A DNA stretch of 43,521 nt, taken from IMG/VR virus record IMGVR_UViG_2872185964_000007; one strand, written 5' to 3'. The position numbers were made by a program, and so were the translations under genes. Shown one piece after another: positions 392 to 42,122 of the stretch (position 1 is its first letter; the number at the start of each line of letters is the position of its first letter). Source of the stretch: a virus. Its lineage: Duplodnaviria > Heunggongvirae > Uroviricota > Caudoviricetes. Under the pieces are notes generated by a model. The model had not been told where the DNA came from. It made no database searches and saw only the letters and a list, made by a program, of their open reading frames with translations.

Positions 392-634
392 ATGACCGAA
401 TTTACAACTCTTCTTCAGCAAGGAAACGCCTGGTTCTTCATCCCCAGCGCCATCTTACTTGGTGCGCTTCATGGTCTGGAACCAGGGCACTCAAAAACGA
501 TGATGGCGGCGTTTATCATCGCCATCAAAGGCACCATTAAACAGGCGGTGATGCTCGGACTGGCAGCAACCATTTCGCAGACCGCGGTGGTCTGGTTGAT
601 TGCCTTTGGCGGGATGGTGATCAGTAAGCGCTGA
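392..634 (+). pseudogene. rcnA: rcnA (Ni/Co efflux pump) 5' fragment, first 80 codons only, cut at an IS junction
   Basis: ORF matches the RcnA N-terminus (MTEFTTLLQQGNAWFF...) then stops at a TGA created at the junction with IS110-family sequence; the remainder of the ~274-aa protein is absent. Confidence 0.85.
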
Positions 635-748
635 TATGACTTTCCGTGTCAAACCGGAATCTCTAATTTTGACGATTTTCTTTTTAGGTTTAATTCCCTG
701 AGGGCGACGTAGCAGTAAATCCGACGGTGAATCGGTAATGACTCCAAC

Positions 749-1126
749 TTATTGATAGTGTTTTATGTTCAGATAATGCCCGATGACTTTGTCATGCAGC
801 TCCACCGATTTTGAGAACGACAGCGACTTCCGTCCCAGCCGTGCCAGGTGCTGCCTCAGATTCAGGTTATGCCGCTCAATTCGCTGCGTATATCGCTTGC
901 TGATTACGTGCAGCTTTCCCTTCAGGCGGGATTCATACAGTGGCCAGCCATCCGTCATCCATATCACCACGTCAAAGGGTGACAGCAAGCTCATAAGACG
1001 CCCCTGCGTCGCCATAGTGCGTTCACCGAATACGTGCGCAACAACCGTCTTCCGGAGCCTGTCATACGCGTAAAACAGCCAGCGCTGGCGCGATTTAGCC
1101 CCGACGTATCCCCACTGTTCGTCCAT
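749..1126 (-). CDS. insB: IS1 transposase InsB (expressed as InsAB' by frameshifting)
   Basis: 125-aa ORF matching IS1 InsB as recalled. Confidence 0.9.
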
Positions 1127-1170
1127 TTCCGCGCAGACGATGACGTCACTGCCCGGCTGTATGCGCGAGG

Positions 1171-1446
1171 TTACCGACTGCGGCCTGAGTTTTTTAAGTG
1201 ACGTAAAATCGTGTTGAGGCTAACGCCCATAATGCGTGCAGTTGCCCGGCATCCAACGCCATTCATGGCCATATCAATAATTTTCTGGTGCGTACCGGGT
1301 TGAGAAGCGGTGTAAGTGAACTGCAGTTGCCATGTTTTACGGCAGTGAGAGCAGAGATAGCGCTGATGTCCGGCAGTGCTTTTGCCGTTACGCACCACCC
1401 CGTCAGTAGCTGAACAGGAGGGACAGCTGATAGAAACAGAAGCCAC
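1171..1446 (-). CDS. insA: IS1 InsA
   Basis: 91-aa ORF matching IS1 InsA as recalled. Confidence 0.9.
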
Positions 1447-1674
1447 TGGAGCACCTCAAAAACACCATCATACACTAAATCAGTAAGTTGGCAGCATCAC
1501 CCGGTGAATCACGCTGATATTCGCGGGTTGGATACCGCATTACAGAGGTCCGTCATATGAGCCTGCCACTTTCTTACGTCGCGAATCAGCTTTGTTCCGC
1601 CGTCGCCAAGCGCTAACGTGGGTTACTCTTGTACCGGGCTACGTCGCCTTCAGGGAACTGGTTATTCTCATTTT

Positions 1675-2849
1675 TTATTTGTGACATTGTGGTTGTTGTG
1701 CGACAGACATTGCTATTCGGCCCATATCCCAGATAAAACCCGCCAGCTCACGTGCAACAGCAACAATTGTAATATTGACATTCTTTCCTTTGGCCTGAAG
1801 TTTTCGATACCTCTTACAAAGCCTGAGTTGAGCATCCCATGCTCTGTCAATGACGGGGCGGGGTAAATTTTCCTGCCTTTTTTGTATTGCCGGACTGATG
1901 CGTGCCGGATGACGGTAACTCCACGCTGCCTCGACCAATAGCTTTCTGGCATAGCTGTTTCCGGCTTTGGTAATGCTGCCCTGATGTCTGCTTCCACCCG
2001 ATGAATATTCTGATGGCGTGATACCAAACCATGACATCAGTTGTCGTGGATGTTCAAAACGGGTCAGATCACCCAGTTCAGAAATTAATCCAACCGCAGT
2101 AATAAACTGAATCCCTCGCATGGCTTGCAGCGCCTCTACTACCGGATACAGCCTCCATTCGGTAACGGCCTCCTTCAGGGCGGATTCCAGCCGTTCACAT
2201 TGTGCCTGCCGGTCTTCTATTGTACGACGGTGTTCGTCAAAAGCTAATTGTCGCCAGGGACTTTCGAATGAGTATTTGCTGAGCCAGCGTCGGTGTGCAG
2301 GGCCCCAATCTGCTCGCCCGACATAATGGACCCCATGAACCAGAAGAAACGATTTCAGACGTTGCCTTGCATGCCGTAAATCATCGCGGGCAGATGCCCA
2401 TGCCCGGGCCAAATCCCGGAATGCCTCATCTTCAATGCCGGGTACGTAGACAGCAGAAAGATCTCCTGCACGCAGTGAACGCACAAGTCTGATGGCATCA
2501 CGGCGATCGGTTTTAACCCGCTCCCCCGGTTTTTTCGGGATAAGTGAGGGGCGCAGACCATGCAGTCAAAACCGGATTTCACCAGCCGACGATAAAGTCC
2601 ATAACCACAGGGCCCCGCTTCATAAACGATACTGACCTGCGATGACTTTGACCTGAGACGTTTACAAAGATTCTGAATATCAGTAGGTGATGTGCCAATT
2701 TTACCCATCAGTTCAACAGGTTCTGAATTGATAGCATAAGCGACAGTAATCGATTCTTTGTGAACATCTAACCCGACGTACAATGTGTTATTGTTGTTCA
2801 TGCTGGCCTCCGTGGTGGAAATACCGGGGTGTAGCAACAGCTCACCCAT
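1675..2849 (-). pseudogene. IS110-family DEDD transposase, copy 1, frameshifted
   Basis: Two overlapping ORFs (2355-2849 and 1675-2484) together cover the 391-aa protein of copy 2; the G-run at 2548-2551 has 4 bases where copy 2 has 5 (8567-8571). Confidence 0.85.
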
Positions 2850-2931
2850 GCGGCTCTGACAACGATGTTAACCCGCGTTAAATATCCCACGTTGGCCAGC
2901 ATCTGTCTCACGGAAAGTCATACTGCCTTAC

Positions 2932-7611: not shown

Positions 7612-7802
7612 TGACACTGGAAGCCGACAGCGTTAACGTACAGGCGCTGGATATGGGACACATTGTCGTTGACATTGATGGTGTTAATATCACTGAACTG
7701 ATTAATAAGGCCGCTGAAAACGGTTATTCACTCCGCGTGGTGGATGACCGTGACTCTACCGAAACACCGGCAACTTATGCCAGCCCTCACCAGTTGCTGT
7801 AA
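7608..7802 (+). CDS. YeeW-like small protein
   Basis: 64-aa ORF overlapping the toxin stop by 4 bp (ATGA), as in CP4-44. Confidence 0.5.
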   Translation: MMTLEADSVNVQALDMGHIVVDIDGVNITELINKAAENGYSLRVVDDRDSTETPATYASPHQLL

Positions 7803-8316
7803 GACAATGCAGTGATACAGGGTATAGTGCCATTAACCACAGAAACAGCACTGTTGTCCTGTATTTAGCAGGCAAGAGAAGATGTCCTTACCCTGCGCCA
7901 TCTGCAGCTTCTGCACCAGAACCGGTGAATCTCACTCAACAGGCTTCATTTCTCCTGACGCCAGCCTGAATACAGCTGGCGTTTTCATTTATAAACAGAA
8001 AGGAAAACCGATAATAATGGAATGGACGCCCCGACCATGAAGCAACGGTAGGATATTACTGATAAACCTTCCAGTGGAGGTGCGTTATGGCCGTTTTAAC
8101 GATTAGCATTGACCTGACAAAAAATGAATTCCAAATCCACGGTCTGGGTAGGAACAGAAAAATCTAAGCTCAGAAAACGGATTAAAGTAAGGCAGTATGA
8201 CTTTCCGTGAGACAGATGCTGGCCAACGTGGGATATTTAACGCGGGTTAACATCGTTGTCAGAGCCGCATGGGTGAGCTGTTGCTACACCCCGGTATTTC
8301 CACCACGGAGGCCAGC

Positions 8317-9444
8317 ATGAACAACAATAACACATTGTACGTCGGGTTAGATGTTCACAAAGAATCGATTACTGTCGCTTATGCTATCAATTCAGAACCT
8401 GTTGAACTGATGGGTAAAATTGGCACATCACCTACTGATATTCAGAATCTTTGTAAACGTCTCAGGTCAAAGTCATCGCAGGTCAGTATCGTTTATGAAG
8501 CGGGGCCCTGTGGTTATGGACTTTATCGTCGGCTGGTGAAATCCGGTTTTGACTGCATGGTCTGCGCCCCCTCACTTATCCCGAAAAAACCGGGGGAGCG
8601 GGTTAAAACCGATCGCCGTGATGCCATCAGACTTGTGCGTTCACTGCGTGCAGGAGATCTTTCTGCTGTCTACGTACCCGGTATTGAAGATGAGGCATTC
8701 CGGGATTTGGCCCGGGCATGGGCATCTGCCCGCGATGATTTACGGCATGCAAGGCAACGTCTGAAATCGTTTCTTCTGGTTCATGGGGTCCATTATGTCG
8801 GGCGAGCAGATTGGGGCCCTGCACACCGACGCTGGCTCAGCAAATACTCATTCGAAAGTCCCTGGCGACAATTAGCTTTTGACGAACACCGTCGTACAAT
8901 AGAAGACCGGCAGGCACAATGTGAACGGCTGGAATCCGCCCTGAAGGAGGCCGTTACCGAATGGAGGCTGTATCCGGTAGTAGAGGCGCTGCAAGCCATG
9001 CGAGGGATTCAGTTTATTACTGCGGTTGGATTAATTTCTGAACTGGGTGATCTGACCCGTTTTGAACATCCACGACAACTGATGTCATGGTTTGGTATCA
9101 CGCCATCAGAATATTCATCGGGTGGAAGCAGACATCAGGGCAGCATTACCAAAGCCGGAAACAGCTATGCCAGAAAGCTATTGGTCGAGGCAGCGTGGAG
9201 TTACCGTCATCCGGCACGCATCAGTCCGGCAATACAAAAAAGGCAGGAAAATTTACCCCGCCCCGTCATTGACAGAGCATGGGATGCTCAACTCAGGCTT
9301 TGTAAGAGGTATCGAAAACTTCAGGCCAAAGGAAAGAATGTCAATATTACAATTGTTGCTGTTGCACGTGAGCTGGCGGGTTTTATCTGGGATATGGGCC
9401 GAATAGCAATGTCTGTCGCACAACAACCACAATGTCACAAATAA
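8317..9444 (+). CDS. IS110-family DEDD transposase/recombinase
   Basis: N-terminal LYVGLDVHK motif typical of the family; GGAGG RBS before ATG 8317 (ORF track begins at upstream ATG 8269). Confidence 0.85.
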   Translation: MNNNNTLYVGLDVHKESITVAYAINSEPVELMGKIGTSPTDIQNLCKRLRSKSSQVSIVYEAGPCGYGLYRRLVKSGFDCMVCAPSLIPKKPGERVKTDRRDAIRLVRSLRAGDLSAVYVPGIEDEAFRDLARAWASARDDLRHARQRLKSFLLVHGVHYVGRADWGPAHRRWLSKYSFESPWRQLAFDEHRRTIEDRQAQCERLESALKEAVTEWRLYPVVEALQAMRGIQFITAVGLISELGDLTRFEHPRQLMSWFGITPSEYSSGGSRHQGSITKAGNSYARKLLVEAAWSYRHPARISPAIQKRQENLPRPVIDRAWDAQLRLCKRYRKLQAKGKNVNITIVAVARELAGFIWDMGRIAMSVAQQPQCHK

Positions 9445-9713
9445 AAAATGAGAATAACCAGTTCCCTGAAGGCGACGTAGCCCGGTACAAGAGTAACCCA
9501 CGTTAGCGCTTGGCGACGGCGGAACAAAGCTGATTCGCGACGTAAGAAAGTGGCAGGCTCATATGACGGACCTCTGTAATGCGGTATCCAACCCGCGAAT
9601 ATCAGCGTGATTCACCGTCGGATTTACTGCTACGTCGCCCTCAGGGAATTAAACCTAAAAAGAAAATCGTCAAAATTAGAGATTCCGGTTTGACACGGAA
9701 AGTCATATCAGCG
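9445..9713 (+). ncRNA. Candidate guide RNA (seekRNA/bridge-RNA type) in the 3' non-coding region of the IS1111-type element
   Basis: Long-range inverted repeat 9462-9481 / 9629-9648 (19 of 20 complementary); position matches where IS1111-subgroup elements encode their guide RNA; no transcript evidence. Confidence 0.35.
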
Positions 9714-9736
9714 TCAACGGAGCACCGTATTGACGC

Positions 9737-41921: not shown

Positions 41922-42122
41922 CCATGCGCAGGGGTGTCGGTGTGAGCTGATGCCCCACTTGTTGTTGTGAGCTTCCGGATTGCGGGAGACGGGTATGTAC
42001 CAGATGGAAAAAATCACAACAGGTGTGTCATACACCGTAAGCGTAAACTGACCGCCGTATGTAGCCATTAAGCCTGTATTGGTAACGTAGGTGCCCACCT
42101 TTTCAACTAGTGGACACCTGTT

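What the first reader, a model, noticed from the sequence alone, without database searches (positions are those of the whole stretch)
9445..9713. 3' non-coding region of the IS1111-type element looks like a structured guide RNA (seekRNA/bridge-RNA type)
The intact element (8187-9713) has a DEDD recombinase ending at 9444 followed by ~270 bp of non-coding DNA before its terminus. That is the architecture of the IS1111 subgroup of IS110-family elements, whose recombinase is programmed by a non-coding RNA encoded downstream of the gene. Within this region 9462-9481 (TTCCCTGAAGGCGACGTAGC) is the reverse complement of 9629-9648 at 19 of 20 positions, predicting a long-range helix enclosing ~147 nt. 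The region also contains short stretches resembling the insertion target (GTAAG at 9543-9547, AGCGCT at 9505-9510). In the disrupted copy, IS1 landed inside this region (equivalent to 9609-9617).
Basis: partly seen in the sequence, partly recalled or inferred. Interest (0 to 1): 0.6.

Follow-up and report, generated by a model that had tools for sequence, protein, structure and literature searches.

The report
Guide RNA gene of insertion sequence ISSso6
The non-coding tail of this mobile element (ISSso6) encodes a conserved folded RNA whose loop matches both strands of the element's insertion site, an ordinary example of the RNA-guided "seekRNA / bridge RNA" system described in 2024.

Summary
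The kind of system is already known, and ISSso6 is already catalogued as having a bridge RNA in its right end (Durrant 2024, Suppl. Table 5).

- **Element.** It is ISSso6, an IS110-family element of the IS1111 group. A K-12-like empty site shows its true extent is 8192-9711 (1520 bp). The flanking GTAAG and CG belong to the target.
- **Fold.** Across 37 homologous elements, 9458-9652 folds into six helices: 98% of cells are paired and 21 pairs show compensatory changes. A covariance model finds the same RNA, on the tnp strand only, in relatives of 49-56% protein identity that were not in the seed.
- **Target guides.** One internal loop carries two guides. 9504-9511 is complementary to the top strand (core plus right flank). 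9542-9546 (GUAAG) is identical to the left flank plus core. Both covary with each element's own flanks (0 of 20,000 permutations).
- **Target.** The specified target is GTA-AG-CG(C/T)TAAC, the terminal inverted repeat of ISEc23-type IS66 elements.
- **Donor.** AUAUCAG (9599-9605) copies the right end and probably reads the donor. No left-end guide was found.
- **Limit.** No transcript data could be tested here.

The parts
8187..8191 (+). Target-derived GTAAG (left target GTA plus core AG). Not part of the element.
   Evidence: The empty site GGATTAAAGTAAGCGTCAACGG is contiguous in a K-12-like genome. The same 5 nt precede the element at six different left flanks.
8192..9711 (+). ISSso6 copy 1, 1520 bp (GCAGTATGAC...GTCATATCAG). 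The register is ambiguous by the shared AG.
   Evidence: Comparison of occupied and empty sites. RefSeq annotates an 'IS110-like element ISSso6 family transposase' here.
8196..8209 (+). Left subterminal inverted repeat, TATGACTTTCCGTG.
   Evidence: 14/14 complementary to 9694-9707.
8317..9444 (+). tnp, a DEDD recombinase of 375 aa.
   Evidence: Pfam PF01548 and PF02371. D12, E61, D99, D102 and S267-S268-G269 are invariant in 15 homologues.
9458..9652 (+). Structured RNA domain (predicted long seekRNA / bridge-type RNA).
   Evidence: Covariance model R1 scores 201 bits on the + strand and 33 bits on the - strand. Consensus fold.
9460..9481 (+).
   Evidence: Pairs with 9629-9650. In this helix 11 of 22 pairs show changes on both sides, and 98.2% of cells are paired.
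9629..9650 (+). P1, 3' strand.
9482..9569 (+). Target-binding domain (P2-P5), 88 nt. This is the size class of the 82-96 nt 'peak' seekRNAs.
   Evidence: Helices P2 9482-4/9567-9, P3 9491-4/9557-60, P4 9498-9501/9550-3, P5 9513-20/9529-38. Size comparison from PMC11187229.
9502..9512 (+). 5' side of the target-binding loop, GUUAGCGCUUG. It acts as a right-target guide, complementary to the top strand. 9504-9508 pair with RT5-RT1, 9509-9510 (CU) with core AG, and 9511 with LT-1.
   Evidence: Complementary to each element's own right flank at 50, 49, 42, 43 and 36 of 53 elements. 134 of 203 Watson-Crick positions against 58.7 in permutations, 0 of 20,000.
9539..9549 (+). 3' side of the target-binding loop. 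It acts as a left-target guide: 9542-9544 GUA equals LT-3..-1 and 9545-9546 AG equals the core (same sense as the top strand, so it pairs with the bottom strand).
   Evidence: Identical to each element's own left flank at 25, 28 and 30 of 30 elements. 61 of 95 positions against 30.2 in permutations, 0 of 20,000.
9580..9597 (+). P6 hairpin in the multiloop.
   Evidence: 5 pairs, 99.5% paired, one pair with a compensatory change.
9599..9606 (+). AUAUCAG plus C. The heptamer is identical to the element's last 7 nt (9705-9711) and is a candidate left-donor guide. The next base, 9606, matches RT1.
   Evidence: Invariant in the 37 sequences. 31 matches with ATATCAG have right ends CATATCA[G/A], and 9 with A[T/A]CAGAG have right ends CATGAGAG. 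9606 equals RT1 in 46 of 53 elements against 24 expected.
9624..9629 (+). UACUGC, complementary to left-end GCAGTA (8192-8197). Only a candidate right-donor guide.
   Evidence: Read from the sequence. No NCR column pairs with left-end position 1, so this remains inferred.
9690..9695 (+). TTGACA, the -35 box of the promoter formed when the ends are joined (TTGACA-17 nt-CAGTAT).
   Evidence: T246 to C250 are invariant and the last A nearly so in 37 elements. Spacing computed on the joined ends. The precedent is ISEc11 Pjunc (PMC11187229).
9694..9707 (+). Right subterminal inverted repeat, CACGGAAAGTCATA.
9712..9718 (+). Right half of the target, CGTCAAC. These are bases 6-12 of the terminal inverted repeat of an ISEc23-type IS66 element (about 9712-12212, minus strand).
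631..2926 (-). ISSso6 copy 2, split by an IS1-like insert (734-1501, 768 bp; 9-bp duplication GATTCACCG) between the AUAUCAG segment and the 3' strand of P1.
   Evidence: The model still scores 123 bits on 1480-1661.

Best explanation
Positions 9458-9652 encode the guide RNA of ISSso6, an IS1111-group member of the IS110 family.

**Transcription (inferred).** The RNA is most likely co-transcribed with tnp. The promoter would be the one created when the excised element circularises (TTGACA-17 nt-CAGTAT). The transcript would then be trimmed.

**Fold (shown by covariation).** A long closing stem (P1) encloses two parts:
- an 88-nt target-binding domain, and
- a multiloop holding a small hairpin and single-stranded conserved sequence.

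**Target reading (shown by covariation).** In the internal loop of the target-binding domain:
- The 3' strand (GUAAG, 9542-9546) pairs with the bottom strand, covering three bases to the left plus the core.

Together they specify GTA-AG-CG(C/T)TAAC. This is the outermost part of the terminal inverted repeat of ISEc23-type IS66 elements.

**Recombination (by analogy).** The DEDD/serine recombinase then exchanges strands at the AG core, without a target duplication. This step is inferred from ISEc11 and IS621.

**Donor reading (partly supported).** The multiloop heptamer AUAUCAG copies the element's right end plus core and probably pairs with the donor's bottom strand. How the left end is recognised was not resolved. 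It may be read by RNA or through the subterminal repeats by the protein.
For: **Identity and architecture.** RefSeq annotates ISSso6 here. The protein has the DEDD and Transposase_20 domains. The subterminal repeats are 14/14. The long non-coding region lies downstream of tnp.

**Exact insertion point.** An empty site fixes the junctions.

**Structure.**
- The RNAalifold consensus of 37 non-coding regions, from elements mostly 60-81% identical in protein, has 50 pairs, 21 with compensatory changes.
- On the 46 pairs tested, 98.1% of cells are paired, against 34-40% when the partner is slid. No shuffle of 500 reaches any of the five measures.
- G-U pairs (for example 33 of 37 at one P1 pair) and the model scores (201 versus 33 bits) pick the tnp strand.
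- Model R1 detects the RNA downstream of tnp in every scanned 49-56%-identity relative that retains DNA past the stop codon (E 1e-15 to 1e-27). None of these was in the seed.

**Guides.**
- An unbiased scan of columns against flank positions gives clean diagonals: RT1-5 with 9508-9504, LT-1..-3 with 9544-9542, and LT-1 with 9511.
- Permutation tests give 0 of 20,000 for both guides.
- The guide base opposite the second core position is C whenever the right junction reads AG. It is U in every element whose right junction reads AA.

**ISSso6 sites.** At five sites with both junctions intact, the flanks are GTA-AG and CG(T)(C/T)AAC. A sixth right half lies in rcnA.

**Donor heptamer.** There is a perfect two-class association with the right-end sequence, 31 against 9 matches.

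**Precedent.** seekRNAs of ISEc11, ISPa11 and ISKpn4 have the top-strand match 5' of the bottom-strand match (PMC11187229). ISSso6 is listed with a bridge RNA detected in the right end (PMC11208160 Suppl. Table 5).
Against: - No transcript, RNA-protein complex or transposition data could be examined.
- No sigma-70-like promoter lies just upstream of the RNA, so expression depends on inferred co-transcription.
- Rfam 15 has no matching family.
- No guide for the left end could be identified. No column pairs with left-end position 1, and candidate segments are not in register between subclades.
- The donor-heptamer covariation rests on one split of the tree and is 6/7, not 7/7, in the second class.
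- The ISEc23 repeat occupied in this window has one mismatch (RT4) and one G-T pair to the guide.
- The rcnA site (AGTAAAGCGCTTAC) matches the left guide only over AAG.
Confidence: 0.9

Rival explanations
1. The RNA reads only the target (a seekRNA in the strict sense). The element's ends are recognised by the protein through the 14-bp subterminal repeats. The AUAUCAG copy would then be conserved for another reason, for example RNA processing or protein binding.
For: No left-end guide was found. For ISEc11 the short RNA that carries only the target matches is sufficient, and the role of the long RNA is unknown (PMC11187229). The subterminal repeats are long and covary with each other across the family.
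Against: The heptamer is single-stranded in the consensus, invariant within the clade, and changes together with the right end in the CATGAGAG subclade. Its 3' neighbour tracks RT1. Durrant et al. report donor-complementary bases in multiloops of IS1111 RNAs.
Confidence: 0.3
2. The conserved palindrome and motifs act as DNA, not RNA. They could be recombinase or host-factor binding sites, or a cruciform near the right end.
For: Inverted repeats near transposon ends are often protein-binding sites. No transcript has been shown here.
Against: Frequent G-U pairs would be C-A mismatches on the other strand, and the model scores 201 against 33 bits between strands. Compensatory changes keep pairing, not sequence. 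Loop bases covary with flanking host DNA, which a DNA-binding site has no reason to do.
Confidence: 0.03
3. The structure is a 3' UTR stability element or terminator for tnp, or a chance palindrome.
For: It lies directly after the stop codon. A long GC-rich stem could stabilise the mRNA.
Against: No U-run follows P1. Six helices and two covarying guide segments far exceed what a terminator needs. No shuffle folds as well.
Confidence: 0.02

Closest known systems
seekRNAs of IS1111-family elements ISEc11, ISPa11, ISKpn4 and ISPst6 (Siddiquee et al. 2024, PMC11187229)
   Same: The RNA is encoded in the long non-coding region downstream of tnp, in an element with subterminal inverted repeats. [quoted passage not shown] The top-strand match lies 5' of the bottom-strand match. 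A promoter forms at the circle junction. The predicted sizes (88-nt target domain inside a roughly 191-nt stem-closed RNA) resemble the reported short (82-96 nt) and long (148-172 nt) forms.
   Different: The recombinase is only about 22% identical to those proteins (Suppl. identity table) and is longer (375 aa against about 340). The target is different (GTAAGCG(C/T)TAAC). Nothing has been tested experimentally for ISSso6.
IS621 bridge RNA (Durrant et al. 2024, PMC11208160; Hiraizumi et al. 2024, PMC11208158)
   Same: The strand logic is the same. [quoted passage not shown] Both cover the core dinucleotide. The guides lie on the two sides of an internal loop, and guide and target covary across orthologues. 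A segment copying the donor's left side (the right end plus core) is present.
   Different: The RNA is in the right end, not the left. The order of the guides in the loop is reversed. The core is AG rather than CT. The donor-matching bases sit in a multiloop rather than a second internal loop. No right-donor guide was identified. The base that tracks the non-cognate DNA (9606 with RT1) adjoins the bottom-strand guide, whereas the IS621 handshake guides adjoin the top-strand guides.
IS4321 / IS5075 (IS1111 family; Partridge and Hall 2003, cited in PMC11208160)
   Same: These are IS1111-group elements whose natural target is the terminal inverted repeat of another transposon family.
   Different: Their target is the 38-bp repeat of Tn21-family transposons. 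Here it is the first 12 bp of the repeat of IS66-family (ISEc23-type) elements.

Membership tests
IS110 family, IS1111 group | DEDD (RuvC-like) N-terminal domain plus a C-terminal PF02371 domain with a conserved S/T-G motif | tested here: met
   PF01548 at 2.6e-11 and PF02371 at 8.2e-24. D12, E61, D99, D102 and S267-S268-G269 are invariant in 15 homologues.
IS110 family, IS1111 group | Subterminal inverted repeats of 7-17 bp with short terminal extensions | tested here: met
   8196-8209 and 9694-9707 are 14/14 complementary. The extensions are GCAG and TCAG.
IS110 family, IS1111 group | The longer non-coding region lies downstream of tnp | tested here: met
   267 nt downstream (9445-9711) against 125 nt upstream (8192-8316).
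IS110 family, IS1111 group | Site- and orientation-specific insertion without a target duplication beyond a shared core | tested here: met
   Empty and occupied sites differ by exactly 1520 bp, with AG shared. Five ISSso6 sites read GTA-AG-CGT(C/T)AAC.
IS110 family, IS1111 group | Circular intermediate with a junction promoter | tested here: inconclusive
   Joining the ends in silico gives TTGACA-17-CAGTAT, and the -35 box is conserved in the family. No circle could be observed.
seekRNA / bridge RNA | Conserved secondary structure of the non-coding region on the tnp strand | tested here: met
   21 pairs with compensatory changes and 98.1% of cells paired. Model hits on the + strand in all relatives.
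seekRNA / bridge RNA | Internal loop with two guides pairing with opposite strands of the target and overlapping at the core | tested here: met
   9504-9511 and 9542-9546 flank loop P4/P5. The complementarity is given.
seekRNA / bridge RNA | Guides covary with the natural target across orthologues | tested here: met
   0 of 20,000 permutations for each guide. Clean diagonals in the unbiased scan.
seekRNA (IS1111 type) | Top-strand match lies 5' of the bottom-strand match | tested here: met
   9504-9511 (top) precedes 9542-9546 (bottom). The rule is stated in PMC11187229.
bridge RNA (bispecific) | A second loop with left and right donor guides that pair with the joined element ends | tested here: inconclusive
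   A left-donor-like AUAUCAG is present and covaries in two classes. No right-donor guide was found.
seekRNA / bridge RNA | The RNA is transcribed, binds the recombinase and is required for excision and insertion | not testable with these tools
Rfam curated family | Match to a curated covariance model | tested here: not met
   Only two chance miRNA matches, at E 2.4 and 8.9. Rfam 15 appears to hold no model for this RNA.

The most novel reading that the evidence does not exclude
The ISSso6 clade may be a distinct architectural variant of the IS1111 guide RNA, in three respects:

- Donor reading would use a single right-end-copying heptamer in a multiloop. Its 3' neighbour tracks the first base of the target's right flank, giving a junction-spanning contact on the bottom-strand guide. 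That contact would serve excision or strand exchange, unlike the IS621 handshake guides.
- The left end would be left to the subterminal repeats.
- ISSso6 itself would be naturally programmed to insert into the terminal inverted repeat of IS66-family (ISEc23-type) elements. It would thus be an RNA-guided IS that disrupts the outer end of another IS family.

None of this appears in the papers I could search.
Probability: 0.35. Interest if true: 0.45.

Novelty: already known. Interest (0 to 1): 0.27.

Why it matters
The result shows that a sequence-only reading can pick out an RNA-guided recombinase module. It also provides the guide code for one more natural system:

- a 12-bp target, GTA-AG-CG(C/T)TAAC;
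- guides at 9504-9511 and 9542-9546;
- about 30 orthologous guide types with their natural flanks.

This set could serve people who engineer IS1111-type recombinases. Biologically, it explains why ISSso6 copies in E. coli and Shigella sit at the ends of IS66-family elements. It does not change what is known about the mechanism.

Tried and rejected
- **Rfam scan of 7800-10100 at E up to 10.** Only chance miRNA hits came back.
- **Promoter and terminator scan.** No promoter lies upstream of the RNA, and no terminator follows P1.
- **Search for a left-end (right-donor) guide.**
  - Mutual information between left-end position 1 (G/T/A) and every NCR column gave no pairing-like column.
  - The segment between P2 and P6 is complementary to the left end in the L059 subclade (UCUGUCU against AGACAGA), but not in ISSso6 or other subclades.
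  - UACUGC (9624-9629) is complementary to GCAGTA but does not covary.
  - I therefore leave this unresolved.
- **Element boundaries 8187-9713.** I first accepted them and then rejected them once the empty site was found.
- **Reconstructed empty site joining copy 1's left flank to copy 2's right flank.** No genome has it. The right part is rcnA, with AGTAAAGCGCTTAC. So the two copies did not simply swap flanks with each other, and more than two copies must be involved.
- **A small protein in the NCR (ORF 9579-9821).** I rejected this. The ORF runs out of the element, and the family alignment has indels that are not multiples of three.
- **L005 outlier.** Its poor guide match is explained by two extra bases at its right junction, compared with L128 at the same target.

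Full report
**What is in the sequence**

- The inverted repeat is real. 9462-9481 and 9629-9648 match at 19 of 20 positions, 147 nt apart, and this is the longest inverted repeat in 8100-9800.
- As RNA, 9445-9713 folds to -88 kcal/mol (z = -4.15), and 9455-9655 gives z = -4.99. None of 200 shuffles folds as well.
- The upstream ORF carries PF01548 (DEDD_Tnp_IS110) and PF02371.
- 14-bp subterminal inverted repeats lie at 8196-8209 and 9694-9707, a perfect match.
- RefSeq annotates the same DNA in E. coli genomes as 'IS110-like element ISSso6 family transposase'.
- A second copy lies on the minus strand (2926 down to 631). A 768-bp insert with IS1-type ends (734-1501) splits it, flanked by the duplication GATTCACCG, which equals 9609-9617.
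- Two small corrections apply. GTAAG is at 9542-9546, not 9543-9547.

**Ends and target**

The span shared by the two copies (8187-9713) includes conserved target bases.

- A reconstructed empty site, made of copy 1's left flank plus GTAAG plus CGTCAACGG..., occurs as one contiguous piece in a K-12-like genome. It is covered at 80% or more in 3,212 genomes. The sequence there reads GGATTAAAGTAAGCGTCAACGGAGCACC.
- The insertion is therefore exactly 1520 bp: GCAGTATGAC...GTCATATCAG, window 8192-9711. The register is ambiguous by the AG present at both junctions.
- The right flank is the end of an IS66-family element that RefSeq calls ISEc23 family. Its other inverted repeat is intact at 12206-12212 on the minus strand.
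- Other ISSso6 copies have different left flanks but the same junction, GTA-AG | CGT(C/T)AAC. These are L001 and L002 from E. coli, and L083 and L124 from metagenomes.
- Copy 2's right flank is rcnA, whose uninterrupted form reads AGTAAAGCGCTTAC.

**A conserved RNA fold**

- A protein search found thousands of relatives. Eighty loci were fetched from genomes, at 49-81% protein identity.
- The non-coding regions of 37 distinct elements align well. RNAalifold predicts 50 pairs, 21 with compensatory changes.
- Counting 46 of these pairs gives 98.1% of cells paired, against 34-40% when partners are slid by 1-3 columns. 100 cells changed on both sides, against 21.7 in shuffles. No shuffle of 500 reaches any of the five measures.
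- In window coordinates the helices are:

| Helix | 5' strand | 3' strand |
|---|---|---|
| P1 | 9460-9481 | 9629-9650 |
| P2 | 9482-9484 | 9567-9569 |
| P3 | 9491-9494 | 9557-9560 |
| P4 | 9498-9501 | 9550-9553 |
| P5 | 9513-9520 | 9529-9538 |
| P6 | 9580-9584 | 9593-9597 |

(coordinates)

- Frequent G-U pairs favour the tnp strand. So do the scores of a covariance model built from 34 of these sequences: 201 bits on the + strand against 33 on the - strand.
- The model finds the RNA downstream of tnp, on the same strand, in every scanned 49-56%-identity relative that retains DNA past the stop codon (E 1e-15 to 1e-27). None of these was in the seed.
- It also scores the IS1-cut copy at 123 bits.
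- Rfam 15 has no matching family.

**The target-binding loop**

The internal loop between P4 and P5 holds the only two hypervariable segments of the alignment. I compared every alignment column with every flank position of the same element.

| Flank position | Window position(s) | Relation | Elements |
|---|---|---|---|
| RT1 to RT5 | 9508 to 9504 | complementary | 50, 49, 42, 43, 36 of 53 |
| LT-1 to LT-3 | 9544 to 9542 | identical | 30, 28, 25 of 30 |
| LT-1 | 9511 | complementary | 26 of 30 |

- Permuting which flank belongs to which element gives, for the right guide, 134 of 203 Watson-Crick positions against a mean of 58.7. For the left guide it gives 61 of 95 identities against 30.2. Neither observed value was reached in 20,000 permutations.
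- The base opposite the second core position is C whenever the right junction reads AG. It is U in every element whose right junction reads AA.
- For ISSso6 the guides read 5'-GUUAGCGCUU-3' (9502-9511) and 5'-GUAAG-3' (9542-9546). Together they specify GTA-AG-CG(C/T)TAAC.
- The L002, L083 and L124 sites fit with one G-T pair. The ISEc23 repeat in this window has one further mismatch, at RT4.
- The strand logic is that of IS621: the left guide pairs with the bottom strand, the right guide with the top strand, and both cover the core (PMC11208160). The order in the loop is reversed, which is the rule reported for IS1111-type seekRNAs (PMC11187229).

**Donor side**

- The multiloop contains AUAUCAG (9599-9605). 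It is invariant in the 37 sequences and identical to the element's last seven bases.
- Across 40 model matches, the 31 with ATATCAG belong to elements with right ends CATATCA[G/A]. The 9 with A[T/A]CAGAG have right ends CATGAGAG.
- This fits a left-donor guide. However, it rests on one split of the tree and is 6/7 in the second class.
- The base after the heptamer (9606) equals RT1 in 46 of 53 elements, against 24 expected. The segment therefore mirrors the right junction by one base into the target. This may matter for excision, which for ISEc11 needs the correct flanks.
- I could not find a guide for the left end. Recognition through the subterminal repeats remains possible.

**Expression**

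- No sigma-70-like promoter precedes the RNA.
- Joining the ends gives TTGACA-17 nt-CAGTAT, and the -35 box is conserved across the family.
- Co-transcription with tnp from this junction promoter, followed by processing, is the model proposed for ISEc11. Here it is inference only.

**Comparison with what is known**

- All tested defining features of an IS1111-group element and of a seekRNA are met.
- The bispecific 'bridge' feature is only half supported.
- Durrant et al. predicted bridge RNAs in 93% of IS1111 elements. Their Supplementary Table 5 lists ISSso6 with the RNA detected in the right end.
- Of the six papers that mention ISSso6, none has the name in its title or abstract, and none looks like a study of its RNA or target. 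I did not read them.
- The finding is therefore correct but already known in kind, and it is catalogued for this very element.
- What this work adds is the fold, the guide positions, the exact ends and the natural target.

**Consequence for copy 2**

IS1 sits between AUAUCAGCGU and CCGUCG. It therefore separates the two strands of P1 and the donor-matching segment from the rest of the multiloop, while the 88-nt target domain stays intact. Copy 2 probably cannot make the full-length RNA. Copy 1's RNA could serve it in trans, as shown for ISEc11 (an inference).

Noticed in passing
window 9712-12220 and 2927-2945: An ISEc23-type IS66 element (about 9712-12212, minus strand) is inserted in an IS1 variant with the 8-bp duplication ACATCTGG. 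One copy of the duplication is at 12213-12220. The other now adjoins the left end of ISSso6 copy 2 (2932-2939). So flanks have been exchanged among ISSso6 copies, or between IS66 copies, by homologous recombination. In K-12-like genomes copy 1's site holds only an IS66 remnant carrying a 138-nt partial transposase CDS.
   Followed up: partly
window 500-630 (minus strand): The right flank of ISSso6 copy 2 is the nickel/cobalt efflux gene rcnA. The uninterrupted gene, found in 5,416 E. coli genomes, reads AGTAAAGCGCTTACTGATC. This site fits the right guide well and the left guide poorly. The matching left half of rcnA is not next to either copy in the window.
   Followed up: partly
window 12206-12212 (-) and 42037-42043 (+): Two unoccupied IS66-type ends (GTAAGCGTAAACTGACC) are present in the window. 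By simple counting they fit the ISSso6 guides about as well as the occupied end. A second IS66-family element probably starts at 42037.
   Followed up: no
window 9606: The base after the AUAUCAG heptamer covaries with the first base of the right target flank (46 of 53 elements against 24 expected). This resembles a handshake-type contact, but on the bottom-strand guide. The signal is absent in the CATGAGAG subclade.
   Followed up: partly
L001 3784-3966 (E. coli C311 chromosome): A divergent match to the RNA model (42.9 bits, E 1.8e-12) lies about 800 nt downstream of ISSso6, at the end of a degraded, frameshifted transposase gene. It has its own loop sequences (…CAUAUAG…, …GAAUAAGAG…). It could be an orphan guide RNA of another, degraded IS1111-type element.
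   Followed up: partly
L069 3850-4044 and 4228-4422: One Desulfosarcina element carries two identical-scoring copies of the RNA in tandem downstream of tnp.
   Followed up: no
L005 versus L128: The same element type sits at the same target in two organisms, but L005 has two extra bases (GC) between the right end and the target. This could be an imprecise junction or a later mutation.
   Followed up: no
window 8088-8168: A short ORF just left of copy 1 (MAVLTISIDLTKNEFQIHG...) resembles the N-terminus of IS110/IS1111-type recombinases. It may be a remnant of another element. It is conserved at this locus in K-12-like genomes.
   Followed up: no
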